In this document: positions 1-12,894 of the stretch, in pieces
Layout: each line of letters starts with the position of its first letter
Numbering within the stretch: position 1 is the first letter of the stretch
Source of the DNA: an uncultured delta proteobacterium
Lineage (GTDB): Bacteria; Myxococcota; UBA727; VGSZ01
Assembly: GCA_963775425.1 (NCBI GenBank)
Contig: CAVZJB010000018.1
Location: 96,001 to 160,000, forward strand
Direction of reading: 5' to 3'
DNA length: 64,000 nt
Made by a program: the position numbers and the translations under genes
Notes under the pieces: generated by a model
What the model saw: the letters and a program-made list of their open reading frames with translations, nothing else
Told to the model about the DNA's origin: nothing
The model's database searches: none

Positions 1-886
1 AGACGTACCTGCGCTGCCACCACCCCGTGCTCGGGCCGCAGGAGCCGCAGGCGCGGCAGCTCGGCTTGTCGCCGCAACTGTCGCGCGACGCGTTCACCCT
101 CGAGCGGCTGTGGCCGGCGCTGTTCGACCCGCGCGAAGACGTGCGCCGCTTCGCCGCCTCGGTGGCGCGCCTCGAGCTGCGCCGCTGGGGCGCGCAGCGG
201 CGGCTCGCGGAGCTGTGCGAGAGCGATGACAGGCAGGTGCGCAACGTCGCGCTCGACGCCATGCTCAGGGCCGGCGACCCCGCCGCCGACCCCGACACCA
301 CGCTCACCCTCGACGAGCTCGACGCCGAGGTCATCTTCCCGCTCACCGAGTCGAGCAAGAAGAGCGTGCGCGAGACGGGGATGGAGCTCATCCGGCGGCA
401 CTACGCGCGCCTCGGCGGCGTCGACAGGCTCGCGTGGCTGATGCAGTCGGCGGAGCGGGACGTGCGCTCGTTCGCGGTGCGCCTGCTGTGGGAGAAGCAC
501 CGGCCGCGGTCGACGCCCAAGGGGTGGCAGCCGCGCGCGGGCGTGATCTTCGACGACGCCGGGCGCTTCGCCGACGGCGTCGCCATGCGCGGCTTCCTGC
601 GCCGCGTGCTGCTCGCGCTGCCGCCGGGGGCCTCGCCCGGCGGTGACGACGACAAGGTGCGCAAGCACGTGCCCGCGAGCGTGGCCAAGCGGCGGCTCGT
701 CGAGGTCGTGCGCGACATCGCGGTGGCCGACGCCGCGTTCGCCGCCGTCGTGACGCCCGTGCTGGCGGAGATGACCGGCTCCTTGGCCAAGGGCGAGTGG
801 CAGGCGTGCCTGGCCGCCGTGCGGGCCATCGAGAGCGCGCACAAGAGCGGCGGCGCGCTCGCCCTGCCGCGCTCCGGGGGGCAGGC

Positions 887-890
<4 letters not shown>
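1..890 (+). CDS. HEAT/ARM-repeat-like protein, 5' end outside window; retron-associated gene
   Basis: Frame is open from the window start (TYLRCHHPVLGPQ...); HEAT-like motifs DPREDVRRFA, DDRQVRNVAL, AERDVRSFAV; stop overlaps next GTG (GTGA 887-890). Confidence 0.75.
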
Positions 891-7945
<7,055 letters not shown>

Positions 7946-8027
7946 AGACGCGGCCCGCTGACGCCGTGCCGGGGGCAGGCACGTGGCCGCGCCGCGTCGT
8001 CACCGGCGTCACCGGAGGGGGCGCACG

Positions 8028-9848
8028 ATGATCGCCGTGGCGCACAGCCGGGCCGTGCAGGTCCGTTACGCGCGCGCGAGCGCCGTCGAGGCCGGCGGCG
8101 ACGGCGCCACGCTCGGGCTCGCGCTCGACACGGGCCGCGGCACCGTCGGCGTGCGCGGCGTCGTCAAGGACGCGGCCCTCGTGCGCGACGCGCTCGTCAC
8201 CCTCGCGGCCGTCCGCGACAGCGATCTCCGCTACAAGGGCAGGGACCGCGCCGCCTACCTCGCGTTCCTGATGAAGAAGGGCAAGAAGGCCAACGCCCAG
8301 ATCTGGCAGGCGCAAAAGGCGTTCCTCGAGGGGCAATTCGAGGCCCCCGCCGTCGACGCCGGCTTCCTCGACCCCGTCCTCACGGTCCACCCCGACGAGG
8401 TCAGCATCGAGGTCTTCAGCAAGGACGAGTCCGCCTACGCCCGCCTCGCCTTCGACAACGCGCTCTTCCTCGAGCGCGCCGCCGCCCACGGCACCGCCTG
8501 CGTCGACCTCTCCCCCGCCGTCGTCGGCCAGCTCGCGCGGCTCCCCGGCTACCGCCCGCTCGCCCTCGACGCGCAGACCGCCGCCGCCGGCCGCCCCCAC
8601 GAGCGCGCCTGGGACCTCTCGCTGCCCTGGCTGCGCGGCTTTCTGCAGGTGCAGTCGGCCGCCGTCTTGCCCGCGGCCACCGCGGTCCTCGAGCCCGTCG
8701 ACCTCTACAACATCCTGTACGCCCTCCGCATGCGCCGGGCGAAGGTCCCGCCGCGCGGCCTCCGCTTCGAGCTCATCCCGGGCGAGCGCCCGCGCGTCGT
8801 CGTCGAGCCCTGGGAGATCGTGCTCGAGGGCCACGGGCCGCGCGTCGAGGCCCGGGAGGCGCGCATCGTGCGCATGTACGGCCGCCGACGCCTGATGCTG
8901 CTGCAGCGCGTGCTGCCCTACGCCCGCAAGCTCGACGTCCACCTCGTCGGCGCCGGCCTGCCCTCGTTCTTCTGCCTCGACCTCGGGCTCGCCTCCCTGA
9001 CGCTCGCCTTGTCGGGGTGGACGGAGTCGTCGTGGTCGAGCGCGGCCGCGTTCGACGCCCTCATGCCGTCGTCGTCGCAGGCGCACGCGCTCGCCGACCG
9101 CGTCCACGGGGTGCTCGCCGCGCGGGGCCCCACGCCGTTTTCCGCGCTCGTCGACGAGACCGGCGCCGCCCCCGAGGACCTCCGCGCGGCCACGCAGCTC
9201 TTGTCGTTGCGCGGGCGCGCGCTCTTTGACGTGGCCCGGCAGGTCTACCGGCCGCGCGACCTCTTCGTGAGCCCGCTCGACGACGCGGCGCTGCGCTACG
9301 GCAGCGCGCGCGAGGCGCAGGCGCACCGGCTGTTGTCCCAGGGCGACGCCGGCGTGCGCCTGAGCAAGGTCCACGAGCGCCCCGACGGCGTCGAGATCTC
9401 CGGGGAGGTCGCGGACGCGGAGAGCCGGCGCACGCTCCTGCCGCGATTTGTCATGGACGCCGAGGGCCGGGTGCGCGAGGCCGCCTGCACCTGCCCCGCG
9501 GTCAGGCGCGCGGGTATGCGCGAGGGCCCCTGCGAGCACATGATCGCCCTGCGCCTCGCCTACGGCAGGAAGCGCGCCGCCGACGCCGCCTTGCGCGACA
9601 CGCCCGAGGGGCGGCGGCTCATCCGCGCCGAGACCCGCACCTATCTGCGGCGGGACGAGGCGGGCCGGGCCGTCACCTGGCGGGTCTCCCTCGACGACAA
9701 GGTCGTCGCGGTGCAGTGGCAGGAGCACGCCGGCGCGCCGCGGTCACAGCGCTTGTGGTTCGATACAGATCAGGCCGCTCGCGATGCATATTTCGATAGA
9801 CTCAACGCGCTGGAAGCGCAAGGTTTTGTGAACTCCGATTCAGTCTGA
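8028..9848 (+). CDS. SWIM zinc-finger protein with C-terminal WGR-like domain; retron type XIII accessory protein
   Basis: GGAGGG RBS before ATG 8028; SWIM motif CTCP...GPCEH; C-terminal VTWRVSLDDKVVAVQW...QRLWFDTDQAARDAYF...AQGF resembles a WGR domain. Confidence 0.85.
   Translation: MIAVAHSRAVQVRYARASAVEAGGDGATLGLALDTGRGTVGVRGVVKDAALVRDALVTLAAVRDSDLRYKGRDRAAYLAFLMKKGKKANAQIWQAQKAFLEGQFEAPAVDAGFLDPVLTVHPDEVSIEVFSKDESAYARLAFDNALFLERAAAHGTACVDLSPAVVGQLARLPGYRPLALDAQTAAAGRPHERAWDLSLPWLRGFLQVQSAAVLPAATAVLEPVDLYNILYALRMRRAKVPPRGLRFELIPGERPRVVVEPWEIVLEGHGPRVEAREARIVRMYGRRRLMLLQRVLPYARKLDVHLVGAGLPSFFCLDLGLASLTLALSGWTESSWSSAAAFDALMPSSSQAHALADRVHGVLAARGPTPFSALVDETGAAPEDLRAATQLLSLRGRALFDVARQVYRPRDLFVSPLDDAALRYGSAREAQAHRLLSQGDAGVRLSKVHERPDGVEISGEVADAESRRTLLPRFVMDAEGRVREAACTCPAVRRAGMREGPCEHMIALRLAYGRKRAADAALRDTPEGRRLIRAETRTYLRRDEAGRAVTWRVSLDDKVVAVQWQEHAGAPRSQRLWFDTDQAARDAYFDRLNALEAQGFVNSDSV
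9797..9825 (+). promoter_or_regulatory. Candidate sigma-A-type promoter TAGACT-N17-AAGGTT inside the 3' end of the SWIM/WGR gene
   Basis: The last ~90 bp of the gene are unusually AT-rich; hexamers resemble the M. xanthus vegA promoter (TAGACA/AAGGGT, from memory) with a 17-nt spacer. Confidence 0.4.
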
Positions 9849-9964
9849 AGGGAGCGTCCGGTAGATGGTGGAAGAGCACGGCACCCCATGGATTGACGTC
9901 GTCGCGCAAGCGGCGCGCGTCGATCCTTGTGCGTTTCCACCCGGCAGCCATCGACTCCGTTCAG
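9845..9964 (+). ncRNA. Putative rod-shaped structured RNA/leader upstream of msr
   Basis: Nested pairings 9845-9854/9955-9964, GGTGGAA 9867-9873/TTCCACC 9935-9941, GCAC 9876-9879/GTGC 9929-9932, GGATTGACG 9890-9898/CGTCGATCC 9918-9926, CGTCGC-GCAA-GCGGCG apex (GNRA loop 9906-9909). Confidence 0.6.
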
Positions 9965-10010
9965 GCGCCGGGAAGGGGACTGTTCAAGTCCCCTTCCCGG
10001 TGTTTTTCTT
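9965..10010 (+). terminator. Intrinsic terminator
   Basis: Perfect 14-bp stem CCGGGAAGGGGACT (9968-9981)/AGTCCCCTTCCCGG (9987-10000), 5-nt loop, G-U extension, followed by TTTTTCTT. Confidence 0.8.
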
Positions 10011-10016
10011 GGATTC

Positions 10017-10284
10017 TGCTGGAGAGGGGATCGGTCGGATCAGCCTCCGTGCCTCGAGCACAGGAGCGGCGTTGCGCCGCTCTGGAGGATTCGCCCGACA
10101 TTCGCCGCAGGGTCGCTTGGTCTTGGCCCGCTTCGGGGGAGCTGCCCATCGGCAGTGCCCTGAGCGGAGCCAACGACGCGAACCGCCGTTTCAGGGCACT
10201 GCCGATGGGCAGCTCCCCCGGCGGGCCGGTGAAGCGACCAATGCCCCATGGAAGAAGGTGGCCCCTCCGGTCCCCTCTCCAGCA
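10017..10284 (+). ncRNA. msr-msd: Retron msr-msd non-coding RNA (Mx162/Sa163-like)
   Basis: a1/a2 inverted repeats TGCTGGAGAGGGGATCGG (10017-10034)/CCGGTCCCCTCTCCAGCA (10267-10284); msr hairpins GTGC-CTCGA-GCAC and GAGCGGCG-TTG-CGCCGCTC; msd perfect 30-bp stem 10134-10163/10191-10220; directly upstream of a retron RT. Confidence 0.93.
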
Positions 10285-10330
10285 CCTTTTGGACCGCGGC
10301 CGCTCCCTGCGGTCGCCACGCGGGCCGCCC

Positions 10331-11674
10331 GTGTCTGAGCTCGAGCGCTTCGTCTCCGCCGACGCGCCCGTGCTCCTCCCCGAGGAGCCGCCGCCGTCGC
10401 GCCGCGAGCGGCCGCGCCCCGACAGCGACGTGGAGGAGCGGGTGCGGCGCTGGCAGCAGATCGAGGCCGCCGGCGGCGTCGAGGCGTGGATCGAGGTGGA
10501 GCTCAAGAAGAAGGGCTTCGTCGACGAGACGCAAAAGGAGCGCAAGAAGGCTGAGGCCGTCGAGCGCCGCGCGCTCAAGAAGCTCGCGTGGCGCGCCTAC
10601 ACGGCCACGCACATCAACCACGTCGGCGCCGTGCACTGGTCCGACCACGTCGACGCCGACCGCTTCGACGTCGAGGAGCGCGAGGCCCGCGCGCAGTCGC
10701 TCGGCATCCCCGCCATCGAGACGCCGCAGGCGCTGGCGGCGCTCCTCGGCCTCACCATCCCGCAGCTGCGCTGGTTGTGTACGCACAGGGACGTCGACGA
10801 CGGCAGCCACTACCGCCGCTTCACCATCGACAAGCGCGACGGCAGCCCCCGCACCATCGCTGCGCCCCTGCCGATGCTCAAGGACGCCCAGCGCTGGGTG
10901 CTGCAAAACATCGTCGACAAGCTCGAGGTGCACGCCGCCGCCCACGGCTTCCTCGCCGGCCGCAGCATCGTCACCAACGCGCGGGCGCACGCCGGCGCCG
11001 ACGTCATCGTGAAGATCGACGTCCGCGATTTCTTCCCCACGCTCGACTACCGGCGGGTGAAGGGGCTGTTGCGCAAGGCCGGCCTCGTCGAGCAGACGGC
11101 CACGCTGTGCGCGCTTTTGGCCACCGAGGCGCCGCGCGACGTCGTCAGGTTCCGCGGCAAGACGCTGTACGTCGCCACCGGGCGACGGGCGCTGCCGCAG
11201 GGCGCGCCGACCTCGCCGATGATCACGAACGCCGTGTGCCTGCGGCTCGACAAGCGCCTGAGCGGCCTCGCCCGCAAGCTCGGGGTCGTCTACACGCGCT
11301 ACGCCGACGACCTGACCTTCTCGTATCGGGGCGATCCGCGGAAGGCGCCCACGGGCATCCTCGTGGCGAGCGCGCGCAAGATCCTGGCCGAGGAGGGCTT
11401 CACCCTCCACGACAAAAAGACCGCGGTGTTGAAGAAGGGCATGCGGCAGAAGGTCACCGGCCTCGTCGTCAACGAGGCCCCCGGCCGCCCGCCCGCGCGG
11501 GTGCCGCGCGCGGTGCGCCGCCGCCTGCGGGCCGCCATCCACAACCGCAAGCAGGGCAAGCCCGGGAAGCCCGGCGAGAGCCTCGCGGCCCTCCAGGGGA
11601 TGGCGGCCTTCGTGTACATGACGGACCCGGTCGCGGGGCGCCGCTTGCTCGACGACGTCCGCGCCCTCTCCTAG
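10331..11674 (+). CDS. ret: Retron-type reverse transcriptase (~447 aa)
   Basis: YADD catalytic motif, retron region X NARAH, region Y VTGLVVN, LPQGAPTSP; N-terminal extension (WQQIEAAGGVEAWI) like myxobacterial retron RTs; GTG start 46 bp after a1. Confidence 0.95.
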   Translation: MSELERFVSADAPVLLPEEPPPSRRERPRPDSDVEERVRRWQQIEAAGGVEAWIEVELKKKGFVDETQKERKKAEAVERRALKKLAWRAYTATHINHVGAVHWSDHVDADRFDVEEREARAQSLGIPAIETPQALAALLGLTIPQLRWLCTHRDVDDGSHYRRFTIDKRDGSPRTIAAPLPMLKDAQRWVLQNIVDKLEVHAAAHGFLAGRSIVTNARAHAGADVIVKIDVRDFFPTLDYRRVKGLLRKAGLVEQTATLCALLATEAPRDVVRFRGKTLYVATGRRALPQGAPTSPMITNAVCLRLDKRLSGLARKLGVVYTRYADDLTFSYRGDPRKAPTGILVASARKILAEEGFTLHDKKTAVLKKGMRQKVTGLVVNEAPGRPPARVPRAVRRRLRAAIHNRKQGKPGKPGESLAALQGMAAFVYMTDPVAGRRLLDDVRALS

Positions 11675-11685
11675 ACTGCCTCGCA

Positions 11686-12894
11686 ATGCGACTCGGTCCC
11701 CTCGTTTTCATGACCTATGGGGCCGTCGCCTCGGTCGCGGCGGCTCCCGCGCTCGGCTTCGACGGCGCGTTCAAAACCATCCCCGGCGGCGACTGGGACG
11801 TCTCGAAGGGGCCCATCCCCTTCGTGCTCGAGCCCAACGGCTCCGCCGACATCGACGACGGCTCCGATCTGCAGGCGGTGCGCGACGCCTTTCGGGCCTG
11901 GCAGTGCATCGACGGCGTGAGCCTCCGCTTCGAGGAGCAGGACGGCCCCGGCCCGGCCGACGCCAACCTCGAGGACGGCCAGAACAGCATCTTCTGGGAC
12001 GAGACCGGCGAATTCGGCCTCGGGCCGGGCACCCTTGGCGTCACCCTCGGCGACGCCACCCCCGGCCAGAAGCGCAACGCCGCCGACATCATCTTCAACG
12101 GCTTCGACTCCTCCTGGTCCACCGACGACAGGCCCAGCGCCGTCGACGTCGGCAGCATCGCGCTCCACGAGAGCGGCCACTTCCTCGGCCTCGATCACCC
12201 CTGCGACGGCAACGCCCCCAACGAGACCAACTGCAACGGCGCCGACCGCTCCATCATGACCCCGGTGTGGAGCGGCGCGGTGCAGCGCTTCCCCTTGCCC
12301 GACGACGAGGCGGGCGTGCGCTCGCTCTACCCCGCCGAGGCCGGCGACACGTCCACGTGCGACGGCCCCTTCCGCAAAGGCGAGAAGTGCTCGTGCGACG
12401 GCGACTGCGTGAAGGGCCTCGTGTGCGCCGCCGTCGACGGCGAGGACAAGAAGGTCTGCGCGGGCACCTGCGCGTCCGACGCCGCCGACTGCGGCCCCGG
12501 CTTCGTGTGCGCGCTCGCCGCGCCCGAGGGAGACGAGGCCGCGCCCGGCGTCTGCGTCAAGGACAACGAGGACGGCACCAAGCCCGCCGGCGCCATCTGC
12601 TCGCGCGGCCCCGAGTGCGCGTCGGGGACGTGCACGCTCATCTTCGAGCTCGCCCGCGACGTCTGCCAGGTGCCCTGCGGCGACAACGGCGACTGCGGCG
12701 GCGGCTCCTGCTTCAAGGGCTTCTGCCTCGGCGCCGCGTCGCACGAGGCGTGCGCGGAGCCGCCGGGTCCGCAGGGGTGCGGCTGCGCGTCGTCGTCGTC
12801 CCCCCTGGACGCCGGGCTCGCCGGCGCGGCCGCGGCGCTGCTCGCGGGCGTCGTCCGACGGCGGCGTGGGCACCGGCCCAGGGGAGCTCGATGA
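11686..12894 (+). CDS. Matrixin-like zinc metalloprotease with Cys-rich repeats and MYXO-CTERM-like anchor
   Basis: Signal peptide; HESGHFLGLDH metzincin motif; SIM Met-turn; C-terminal GCGC + hydrophobic helix + RRRR. Confidence 0.85.
   Translation: MRLGPLVFMTYGAVASVAAAPALGFDGAFKTIPGGDWDVSKGPIPFVLEPNGSADIDDGSDLQAVRDAFRAWQCIDGVSLRFEEQDGPGPADANLEDGQNSIFWDETGEFGLGPGTLGVTLGDATPGQKRNAADIIFNGFDSSWSTDDRPSAVDVGSIALHESGHFLGLDHPCDGNAPNETNCNGADRSIMTPVWSGAVQRFPLPDDEAGVRSLYPAEAGDTSTCDGPFRKGEKCSCDGDCVKGLVCAAVDGEDKKVCAGTCASDAADCGPGFVCALAAPEGDEAAPGVCVKDNEDGTKPAGAICSRGPECASGTCTLIFELARDVCQVPCGDNGDCGGGSCFKGFCLGAASHEACAEPPGPQGCGCASSSSPLDAGLAGAAAALLAGVVRRRRGHRPRGAR

What the first reader, a model, noticed from the sequence alone, without database searches (positions are those of the whole stretch)
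9867..10010. Terminator/antiterminator switch could gate msDNA and RT expression
Seen: GTTTCCACCCGGC (9933-9945) can pair either with GGTGGAA (9867-9873) in the rod, or with the terminator 5' arm GCCGGGAAGGGGAC (9967-9980; 6 bp + 6 bp with two G-U). The two folds are mutually exclusive, as in riboswitches and attenuators. Only 6 nt separate the terminator from a2, so msr-msd-ret probably needs read-through. Inference: an attenuator-controlled retron, possibly coupled to the ribosome at the WGR stop (9846-9848, inside the closing helix) or to a protein or ligand.
Basis: partly seen in the sequence, partly recalled or inferred. Interest (0 to 1): 0.8.

Follow-up and report, generated by a model that had tools for sequence, protein, structure and literature searches.

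The report
Terminator hairpin inside a retron leader
Between the effector genes and the non-coding RNA of a known kind of bacterial retron (type XIII, like Mx162 of Myxococcus) lie a long RNA hairpin and a textbook transcription terminator; the proposed on/off switch between them can be drawn, but nothing shows it is more than a coincidence.

Summary
The structures are real. The rod 9843-9966 (-67.5 kcal/mol, z -5.4) is followed by a perfect hairpin 9967-10001 (-32.1, z -7.4) and a U-tract. By hairpin energy this site ranks 13th of 3027 T-tract sites in the genome. a2 starts at 10017.

The locus is a type XIII retron: HEAT/WD40 protein, SWIM_XIII protein, msr-msd, RT_XIII.

The alternative pairing 9933-9945 with 9967-9980 exists. 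Its complementarity is close to chance (p 0.06-0.09). Forcing it costs 20 kcal/mol. Its probability in the nascent RNA is 0.001 unless the rod's 5' side is blocked. No relative carries the leader, so conservation cannot be tested. Public-run contigs with an identical msr keep the U-rich tract but show no terminator 3' arm in the 30 upstream bases displayed.

Two things suggest that retron transcripts start upstream of the terminator. No sigma-70-like promoter lies at 9800-10017. The rod's 5' strand and the U-tract show borderline similarity to the extended a2 arm of a same-family retron.

Best reading (0.45): a lineage-specific, unregulated leaky terminator inside the retron leader. A regulated attenuator is possible (about 0.15).

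The parts
797..7945 (+). Large HEAT-repeat protein with an N-terminal WD40 propeller; the accessory gene of type XIII retrons
   Evidence: ORF. Pfam HEAT_2 E 4e-53 and WD40 E 1.9e-15. HEAT/ARM proteins precede the SWIM gene in type XIII systems (PMC7736814, passages read).
7983..9848 (+). SWIM-type retron effector gene with a WGR-like C-terminal end; stop TGA 9846-9848
Evidence: PADLOC SWIM_XIII E 2.4e-144, residues 25-530. No Pfam hit at E 0.001.
9843..9966 (+). 124-nt imperfect rod hairpin, apex loop AAGC at 9906-9909
   Evidence: Minimum-energy fold: -67.5 kcal/mol, z -5.4. Single copy in the genome.
9862..9904 (+). Rod 5' strand, possibly a remnant of the family's extended a2 arm (borderline similarity)
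   Evidence: Local alignment to positions 1-45 of the a2-side arm of G005 ncRNA copy 3, p 0.002 among 30 tests, so about 0.06 after correction.
9933..9945 (+). Strand that pairs either in the rod or with the terminator's 5' arm (the proposed antiterminator)
9967..10001 (+). Perfect 14-15 bp G+C-rich hairpin with a 5-7 nt loop
   Evidence: -32.1 kcal/mol, z -7.4. No U-run on the minus strand (read).
10001..10016 (+). U-rich tract TGTTTTTCTT plus GGATTC; serves as the terminator tail and may be an ancestral part of the a2-side arm
   Evidence: Aligns to G005 copy 2 arm positions 49-78, p 0.008 among 30 tests. A T-rich tract stands at the same distance from a2 in run contigs.
10017..10034 (+). 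a2 inverted repeat
   Evidence: Pairs with 10267-10284 in folds.
10043..10043 (+). Probable branching (priming) G within TCAGCC
   Evidence: TCAGCC is conserved in L003, L004 and L005. CAGC is the context in Mx162 (PMC6868368, passage). Inference only.
10133..10221 (+). Long near-perfect msd stem
10267..10284 (+). a1 inverted repeat
10292..10311 (+). Strand beyond a1 that can pair with 9845-9862 (outer closing helix of the precursor)
   Evidence: Duplex -27.4 kcal/mol, p 0.04. Forcing the core 8 bp gives -316.8 against the minimum of -320.4.
10331..11674 (+). Retron reverse transcriptase; start codon uncertain (GTG 10331 or ATG 10241)
   Evidence: PADLOC RT_XIII E 1.3e-148 and Pfam RVT_1 E 1.8e-19. 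YADD box present.

Best explanation
The stretch 9843-10016 is the leader of a type XIII (Mx162-like) retron. It lies between the stop codon of the SWIM/WGR effector gene and the a2 repeat.

It has two parts. The first is a lineage-specific rod. Its 5' strand looks like a remnant of the long a2-side arm seen in same-family retrons, and its 3' strand has no detectable relative. The second is a perfect G+C hairpin placed directly in front of a U-rich tract that may itself be ancestral. Together the hairpin and the tract make a canonical Rho-independent terminator.

Most likely it acts as a plain, unregulated and leaky terminator. RNA polymerase arrives from the HEAT and SWIM/WGR genes, or from a promoter in the 3' end of the SWIM/WGR gene. 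It mostly stops at about 10005-10010. Only the read-through fraction carries msr-msd and the RT gene. This sets a low, fixed ratio of retron RNA and RT to effector mRNA.

Shown: the structures, their strength, their uniqueness, and the retron type. Inferred: that transcripts start upstream, that termination occurs in vivo, and that it is unregulated.
For: Terminator quality:
- 14-15 perfect pairs, -32.1 kcal/mol, then TGTTTTTCTT.
- 13th of 3027 T-tract sites in the 8.26-Mb genome by upstream hairpin energy. The sites ranked near it are classic hairpin-plus-T-run terminators.
- It is the strongest such site in the first 20 kb of the window, and no comparable site follows the RT gene.

Default fold is rod plus terminator at every nascent length. 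Terminator pair probability is above 0.997 in all six full-length (to 10015) settings tried, masked and 5'-truncated ones included.

Retron type: RT_XIII 1.3e-148 and SWIM_XIII 2.4e-144, HEAT repeats, a1/a2 and msd stem.

Transcripts probably start upstream:
- 0 promoter-like sites in 9300-10700.
- A relaxed scan finds only two overlapping 7-of-12 sites at 9762-9792 and none in 9800-10017.
- Of 35 related loci with a confident a1/a2, 14 have a2 within 40 nt of the SWIM stop.
- In G005 and L003 the arm begins at an AAAGGAG motif just after the stop.
- Collinear similarity of 9862-9904 and 10003-10033 to that arm.
- An outer helix 9845-9862 with 10292-10311 is possible.

Lineage-specific and probably recent:
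- No other copy in the genome.
- No match in 119 metagenome loci and no significant similarity to relatives' leaders.
- The second retron of the same genome (L012) has a short leader, about 50 nt by my reading, with no terminator.
- Contigs of runs X1 and X2 are identical to 10018-10136. The one-contig consensus shown for X2, X15 and X16 carries a different 30 bases upstream, without the hairpin's 3' arm.
Against: - No transcript data exist for this organism. The only RNA-library contigs (X15/X16, probably one data set filed twice) come from a relative, are short, and may be DNA.
- msDNA is normally abundant, which fits poorly with a strong terminator directly upstream.
- A 124-nt, highly stable rod abutting a terminator is more elaborate than a plain gene-end terminator needs.
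- The similarity of the rod's 5' strand and of the U-tract to the G005 arm rests on p 0.002 and 0.008 among 30 comparisons. Neither survives a strict correction.
- The near-chance p values of the alternative pairing (0.035-0.093) do not exclude selection.
- Promoters of other sigma factors were not scanned.
Confidence: 0.45

Rival explanations
1. Regulated attenuator. The rod is the anti-antiterminator. When its 5' side is held open, 9933-9945 pairs with 9967-9980 and blocks the terminator, so msr-msd-RT is made. The opening agent could be a ribosome finishing the SWIM/WGR gene, a protein such as the RT or an effector, or a ligand.
For: - The three-way exclusive geometry is real.
- The isolated segment 9933-9980 folds into exactly this helix at -23.0 kcal/mol.
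- With 9840-9863 masked (ribosome at the stop), mean antiterminator pair probability is 0.68 in RNA ending at 9987. With 9840-9875 masked it is 0.98.
- The terminator seems to sit inside the retron's own precursor, which is where attenuators sit.
- From general knowledge, recalled: in the E. coli trp leader the antiterminator is also weaker than the terminator.
Against: - Complementarity is close to chance (5.9% of shuffles, 9.3% of genomic pieces).
- Forcing the helix costs 20.4 kcal/mol (-81.4 against -101.8).
- Its probability is 0.0009 with an intact rod, and 0.0001 or less once the 3' arm is present, in every setting.
- A ribosome at the stop would have to stay while the polymerase moves about 120-160 nt further (inference).
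- No Rfam family matches.
- The AAAGGAG motif of relatives is not followed by a conserved start codon, by my reading.
- ORF 9865-10338 runs through the whole ncRNA. By my hand count of its first 34 codons, about 65% end in G or C, which I take to be low for a gene in a genome of 72% G+C.
- There are no homologues for a covariation test. Near relatives show no hairpin arm in the 30 bases displayed.
Confidence: 0.15
2. Insulator plus separate promoter. The hairpin simply ends the HEAT-SWIM/WGR transcript. msr-msd-RT is transcribed from its own promoter, which overlaps the hairpin or U-tract or uses a sigma factor my scans do not model.
For: - Some type XIII retrons do have a sigma-70-like promoter just upstream of a2. 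TTGACA-N18-TAnnnT occurs in 3 of 35 surveyed loci (L162, L163, L164).
- By eye, TTGACA-N17-TAGCGT occurs in L159, L166 and L179.
- In L166 a hairpin and a T-run precede that promoter.
- msDNA is usually abundant.
- Homology with run contigs starts exactly at 10018.
Against: - Only 16 nt lie between hairpin and a2.
- No -10 of form TAnnnT lies in 9800-10017, and the tool found 0 sites.
- The T-rich element 9-17 nt before a2 lacks the A at position 2 of a -10 hexamer, both in the window and in the run contigs.
- The RNA-library contig of a relative extends 48 nt upstream of a2. This is weak, because it may be DNA.
Confidence: 0.2
3. Structural or neutral insertion. The rod and hairpin are extra branches of the retron precursor, or a recent neutral insertion. 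They do not terminate appreciably in this organism.
For: - G005 copy 1 also carries an 11-bp hairpin inserted just before the a2 core, without a U-run after it.
- 16 of 25 Mx162-type leaders have a G+C hairpin between the WGR stop and the a2 arm, followed by purines and not by U.
- In the global fold the rod core and the hairpin are branches of one multiloop closed by long-range pairs.
Against: A perfect 15-bp G+C stem followed at once by five consecutive U matches the genome's own best terminators. The RT and the ncRNA look intact, so selection would be expected to notice a strong stop.
Confidence: 0.1

Closest known systems
Type XIII retrons (Retron-Mxa1/Mx162, Mxa2/Mx65, Sau1/Sa163, Nex2/Ne144; Mestre et al. 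2020, PMC7736814)
   Same: - RT of the RT_XIII family and a SWIM_XIII protein, preceded by a HEAT-repeat protein.
- The ncRNA has a1/a2, a TCAGCC branching context and a long msd stem.
- The msr is 76-83% identical to that of 94 of 172 sampled genomes of one family. I take that family to be the Mx162-type Myxococcaceae, judging from named records.
   Different: - The leader between the SWIM/WGR stop and a2 is 168 nt, against a median of 63 nt in 35 loci.
- It holds a -32 kcal/mol hairpin plus U-tract. The strongest such element elsewhere in the survey is -20.7 (L163, L164).
- The long-range outer a2/a1 duplex of relatives is largely replaced by a local rod.
Rho-independent (intrinsic) terminators
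   Same: G+C-rich perfect stem, short loop, U-run directly after, one strand only. It ranks among the genome's best.
   Different: It sits 16 nt before the functional start of a non-coding RNA that has no recognisable promoter of its own. Part of its U-tail may be ancestral ncRNA sequence (borderline).
Transcription attenuators (trp-type leader, T-box, riboswitch expression platforms)
   Same: There are three mutually exclusive helices: anti-antiterminator, antiterminator and terminator. They lie upstream of the regulated unit.
   Different: - No sensor was identified: no Rfam family, no conserved leader peptide, no aptamer-like junction.
- The antiterminator complementarity is near chance.
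- There is no conservation.

Membership tests
Type XIII retron | Reverse transcriptase of clade 10 / RT_XIII | tested here: met
   PADLOC RT_XIII E 1.3e-148, residues 41-446; Pfam RVT_1
Type XIII retron | Linked SWIM Zn-finger protein (cluster 114 / SWIM_XIII) | tested here: met
   PADLOC SWIM_XIII E 2.4e-144; gene ends 168 nt before a2
Type XIII retron | HEAT/ARM-repeat accessory protein upstream | tested here: met
   Pfam HEAT_2 E 4e-53 in ORF 797-7945
Type XIII retron | msr-msd ncRNA with a1/a2 repeats and a priming G | tested here: met
   18-bp a2/a1, long msd stem, TCAGCC motif. The priming G itself is inferred.
Type XIII retron | Production of msDNA | not testable with these tools
   Needs nucleic-acid extraction from the organism or a host
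Intrinsic terminator | Stable G+C-rich hairpin directly followed by a U-run on the transcribed strand | tested here: met
   Not listed by the simple scan.
Intrinsic terminator | RNA 3' ends at the U-run in vivo or in vitro | not testable with these tools
   No run of this organism with raw RNA reads was found
Transcription attenuator / riboswitch | Mutually exclusive terminator and antiterminator folds | tested here: met
Transcription attenuator / riboswitch | Antiterminator complementarity beyond chance | tested here: inconclusive
   p 0.059 (shuffles), 0.093 (genomic pieces), 0.035 (last 60 nt)
Transcription attenuator / riboswitch | Conservation or covariation of both folds in relatives | tested here: not met
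   No homologous leader in 61 + 401 genomes, 119 metagenome loci or 80 RT loci. Run contigs with an identical msr show no hairpin arm in the 30 bases displayed.
Transcription attenuator / riboswitch | A sensor: known aptamer, T-box, leader peptide or protein site | tested here: not met
   Rfam: 12 matches at E up to 10, none near its gathering score, and most of them microRNA or other RNA-gene models laid on the two long hairpins. No conserved leader ORF in relatives, by my reading.
Transcription attenuator / riboswitch | Transcription start upstream of the terminator | not testable with these tools
   Only inferred

The most novel reading that the evidence does not exclude
Synthesis of the retron's ncRNA and RT is gated in cis by a leader terminator built into the a2-side arm. 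Read-through happens only when the rod's 5' side is held open, for instance by the ribosome that has just finished the SWIM/WGR effector gene. Production of msDNA and RT would then be coupled to effector translation. Otherwise transcription ends at about 10005-10010 and leaves a roughly 160-nt rod-plus-terminator RNA, which could itself be a small regulatory RNA.
Probability: 0.15. Interest if true: 0.7.

Novelty: new variant of a known kind. Interest (0 to 1): 0.35.

Why it matters
It is not known how retrons balance effector, RT and msDNA, and type XIII retrons have no established function. A strong terminator placed between effector genes and the ncRNA would be a simple way to fix or gate that balance. 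If it proved to be regulated, it would, as far as my four literature searches show, be the first retron attenuator described.

As it stands the evidence supports an ordinary terminator in an unusual place, in one lineage only. The comparison also gave a useful by-product. In this retron family the ncRNA arm often starts right at the effector gene's stop codon. The ncRNA is therefore probably co-transcribed with, or started from inside, the effector gene.

Tried and rejected
- Repeat or mobile-element origin: rejected. The 170-nt leader has one full copy in the genome. Of the other 40 matches, the 9 I can see (those stored as loci) are 22-34 nt with E of 0.004 or more; the best of them is the hairpin's own opposite strand.
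- Known RNA family: none. There are 12 Rfam matches at E up to 10, all far below their gathering scores.
- Hairpin as a duplicate of part of the rod, which would explain the shared complementarity: rejected. Local alignments give p 0.57-0.93.
- Leader as a duplicate of the locus's own ncRNA or of relatives' leaders taken whole: not significant. The best is L005 at p 0.025, the others are 0.15 or more. Strand-wise tests gave two nominal hits of 30.
- Leader peptide from ATG 9865: rejected. The ORF of 157 codons runs through the whole ncRNA and is not conserved; by my hand count its third codon positions are poor in G+C.
- Closer relatives for covariation:
  - An exact 43-mer in metagenome contigs gave 0 hits.
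  - A degenerate msr motif gave 119 loci, of which only L063 has an RT homologue; none matches the leader.
  - The msr DNA against 401 genomes of the phylum gave nothing above 83% identity.
- Sequencing runs: no run holds half of the words or more. The best share is 0.12, so I name no habitat or strain. The one laying call (4 runs, contigs only) cannot show RNA ends. Parts without cover are not evidence.
- Promoter by eye in the Mx162-type WGR 3' end (GTGACG-N17-TAGAAA): left as a lead, not counted.
- Old Mx162 papers on the precursor's 5' end could not be read (not held).

Full report
WHAT IS THERE

The window is G000:C18:96001-160000 of an 8.26-Mb genome with 72% G+C. On the + strand the locus runs as follows:
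- a 2382-codon ORF 797-7945 with WD40 and HEAT repeats;
- ORF 7983-9848, which matches PADLOC SWIM_XIII (E 2.4e-144);
- a 168-nt non-coding stretch;
- a retron ncRNA with a2 10017-10034, msr hairpins, a long msd stem 10133-10221 and a1 10267-10284;
- an ORF ending at 11674, which matches RT_XIII (E 1.3e-148) and Pfam RVT_1.

This is the gene set that Mestre et al. 2020 call a type XIII retron, the group that holds Mx162, Mx65, Sa163 and Ne144 (PMC7736814; passages read).

THE OBSERVATION

RNA 9840-10015 folds at -101.8 kcal/mol into two adjacent hairpins. Dinucleotide shuffles give -65.8 +/- 4.2 (z -8.6, 0 of 200).
- The first hairpin is an imperfect rod, 9843-9966. Alone it gives -67.5 kcal/mol and z -5.4. 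The stop codon 9846-9848 lies in its closing helix.
- The second is a perfect hairpin, 9967-10001. Alone it gives -32.1 kcal/mol and z -7.4. It is followed by TGTTTTTCTT.

I scanned the whole genome for T-tracts with at least 6 T in 8 bases and folded the sequence upstream of each. This site ranks 13th of 3027, among hairpins of classic terminator form. It is also the strongest such site in the first 20 kb of the window. The tool's own simple scan did not list it, and I cannot explain that.

The alternative helix can be drawn exactly as described: 9933-9938 with 9975-9980, and 9940-9945 with 9967-9972. It is the minimum-energy fold of the isolated segment 9933-9980, at -23.0 kcal/mol.

IS THE ALTERNATIVE HELIX MORE THAN CHANCE?

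Barely. The best duplex between the terminator's 5' arm and the 118 upstream bases is -19.9 kcal/mol. Of 2000 dinucleotide shuffles, 5.9% do as well. So do 9.3% of 2166 same-length pieces of the window. For the last 60 bases alone the figure is 3.5%.

Forcing the helix in the full leader costs 20.4 kcal/mol. At each of the eight nascent lengths folded, the minimum-energy fold keeps the rod. In RNA ending at 9987 the mean pair probability of the antiterminator is 0.0009.

The picture changes if the rod's 5' side is blocked. With 9840-9863 unavailable the probability rises to 0.68, and with 9840-9875 unavailable to 0.98. Once the 3' arm is present, the terminator has probability above 0.997 in each of the six full-length settings tried. 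Weaker antiterminators can work kinetically, so thermodynamics does not exclude a switch. It does show that the default state is termination.

RELATIVES

The leader is single-copy in the genome and matches no Rfam family.

Of 61 related genomes, 11 have an RT match at E 1e-30 or better, and the best is 60% identical. In every locus with enough upstream DNA, the retron follows a SWIM or SWIM/WGR gene. None of them has the rod. The genome's own second retron (L012) has a short leader, about 50 nt by my reading, without a terminator.

Two metagenome scans gave no close relative.

A scan of species genomes with an RT alignment gave 80 loci. Of these, 64 show a SWIM/WGR-like match upstream on the same strand. 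Thirty-five have a gap of 330-1500 nt and a confident a1/a2. In those 35:
- the leader has a median length of 63 nt; it is 40 nt or less in 14 and over 120 nt in 6;
- three carry TTGACA-N18-TAnnnT;
- two (L163, L164) have a hairpin plus T-run, at -20.7 kcal/mol at best, overlapping that promoter.

A terminator of this strength in the leader is therefore seen only in the window among the loci examined.

THE LEADER MAY BELONG TO THE RETRON PRECURSOR

In G005, a genome of the same family, the retron has three ncRNA copies, one before and two after the RT gene. Each begins with an AAAGGAG motif and has a long a2-side arm that pairs with sequence beyond a1. L003 is built the same way.

Strand-wise local alignments gave two nominal hits among 30 comparisons. 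Window 9862-9904 aligns to arm positions 1-45 of copy 3 (p 0.002). Window 10003-10033 aligns to arm positions 49-78 of copy 2 (p 0.008). The two hits are collinear, but neither survives strict correction for the 30 tests. They suggest that the rod's 5' strand and the U-rich tract with GGATTC are ancestral arm sequence. On that reading, about 98 nt in between were added in this lineage: the rod apex, the rod's 3' strand, a linker and the hairpin.

The leader's start, 9845-9862, can also pair with 10292-10311 beyond a1. The duplex is -27.4 kcal/mol (p 0.04). Forcing its 8-bp core gives -316.8 against a minimum of -320.4.

No sigma-70-like promoter is found in 9800-10017.

Together these points make it likely, though not shown, that retron transcripts begin upstream of the rod and must pass the terminator.

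NEAR RELATIVES IN PUBLIC RUNS

No run holds the organism convincingly; the best share of sampled words is 0.12. Four runs were laid.
- Short contigs of X1 and X2 are identical to 10018-10136 and 10018-10140.
- A contig of an RNA library covers 10018-10190 with 8 differences and 4 gaps. It appears in both X15 and X16, which look like one data set filed twice.
- X2, X15 and X16 share the same upstream sequence, which differs from the window; each consensus comes from a single contig. The loose end of the X1 contig was not displayed.

By eye, that upstream sequence keeps a T-rich tract at the same distance from a2. Directly before the tract it has a motif that the window carries at 9949-9956, on the rod's 3' strand. 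It has nothing like the hairpin's 3' arm in the 30 bases shown. This suggests that the 35-nt hairpin is a recent gain in the window's lineage. It rests on 30 bases of one-contig consensus. The RNA-library contig reaches 48 nt upstream of a2, which is a weak hint of an upstream start, but the contig may be DNA.

HOW IT MOST LIKELY WORKS

I commit to an unregulated, leaky Rho-independent terminator inside the retron leader (confidence 0.45). Most polymerases coming from the effector genes stop at about 10005-10010, and the rest make msr-msd-RT.

The rivals are:
- a separate promoter that my scans do not see, with the hairpin acting only as an insulator (0.2);
- a structural or neutral insertion that does not terminate (0.1).

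The remainder is unassigned.

COMPARISON AND NOVELTY

The locus is a member of the type XIII retrons; all sequence-testable features are met. The hairpin meets the sequence definition of an intrinsic terminator.

It does not qualify as an attenuator or riboswitch. It has the exclusive folds, but it lacks above-chance complementarity, conservation and a sensor.

I found no paper describing a terminator or attenuator upstream of a retron msr. Four searches cover this; for papers other than the two named I saw only listings. I read passages only of PMC7736814 and PMC6868368. The supplements of PMC7736814 could not be seen and may show the 5' limit of the type XIII ncRNA.

VERDICT

The structure is real, well described and lineage-specific. 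The switch is an unproven and currently unnecessary hypothesis. Interest 0.35.

Noticed in passing
L005 (G005:C11), reverse-complement coordinates 983-3625: One retron RT is flanked by three ncRNA copies, one before and two after the RT gene. Their msr parts are nearly the same and their msd stems differ.
   Followed up: partly
genomes G260, G304, G305, G317, G302, G227, G252; loci L230, L235, L238: Several Mx162-type genomes have two msr matches. Some pairs lie about 380-630 nt apart on one contig (tandem ncRNA units); others lie further apart or on different contigs. The second unit follows the a1 of the first.
   Followed up: no
L039, L050, L117, L145 (metagenome contigs): msr-msd-like units with no RT homologue anywhere in the fetched locus. 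This recalls the orphan copies reported for Nannocystis (Ne160; mentioned in PMC6868368).
   Followed up: no
Window 9847-9856; L003, L005, L007-L010, L013, L015, L063: A Shine-Dalgarno-like motif, AAAGGAG(G/C) (AAGGGAG in the window), stands directly after the SWIM/WGR stop codon at the 5' end of the a2-side arm. No conserved start codon follows it. In L003 and G005 it pairs with CUCCUUU beyond a1.
   Followed up: partly
Mx162-type leaders, e.g. L004, L146, L172, L173, L183, L227-L240: In 16 of 25 leaders a G+C hairpin of 6 bp or more lies between the WGR stop and the a2 arm. A purine-rich GGAAGG-like motif follows it directly, never a U-run. The arm sequences differ between genera while the pairing is kept.
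   Followed up: partly
L154, L156, L157, L161, L167, L169, L174-L178, L180, L182: In these RT_XIII-like loci the SWIM/WGR-like gene ends only 39-99 nt before the RT match, so the ncRNA cannot lie between them.
   Followed up: no
Window 797-7945, especially about 7600-7800: The HEAT protein has an N-terminal WD40 propeller and ends in a long Asp/Asn-rich tail encoded by short tandem repeats.
   Followed up: no
Window 9780-9805: An A+T-rich patch with codons that I would expect to be rare at this G+C content (AGA, TAT, GAT, GCA) lies in the last 60 nt of the SWIM/WGR gene, in a genome of 72% G+C. G005 uses AGA at the same Arg. It could hide a DNA- or RNA-level signal such as a promoter.
   Followed up: partly
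Window 11672-11690: The RT stop codon is followed 12 nt later by the ATG of a gene whose product carries a zinc-protease-like HExxH motif. No terminator lies between them.
   Followed up: no
L162, L163, L164, L170; L159, L166, L179: Some type XIII retrons carry a clear TTGACA-N17/18-TAnnnT promoter just upstream of a2. In L166 it follows two hairpins and a T-run after the WGR stop.
   Followed up: partly
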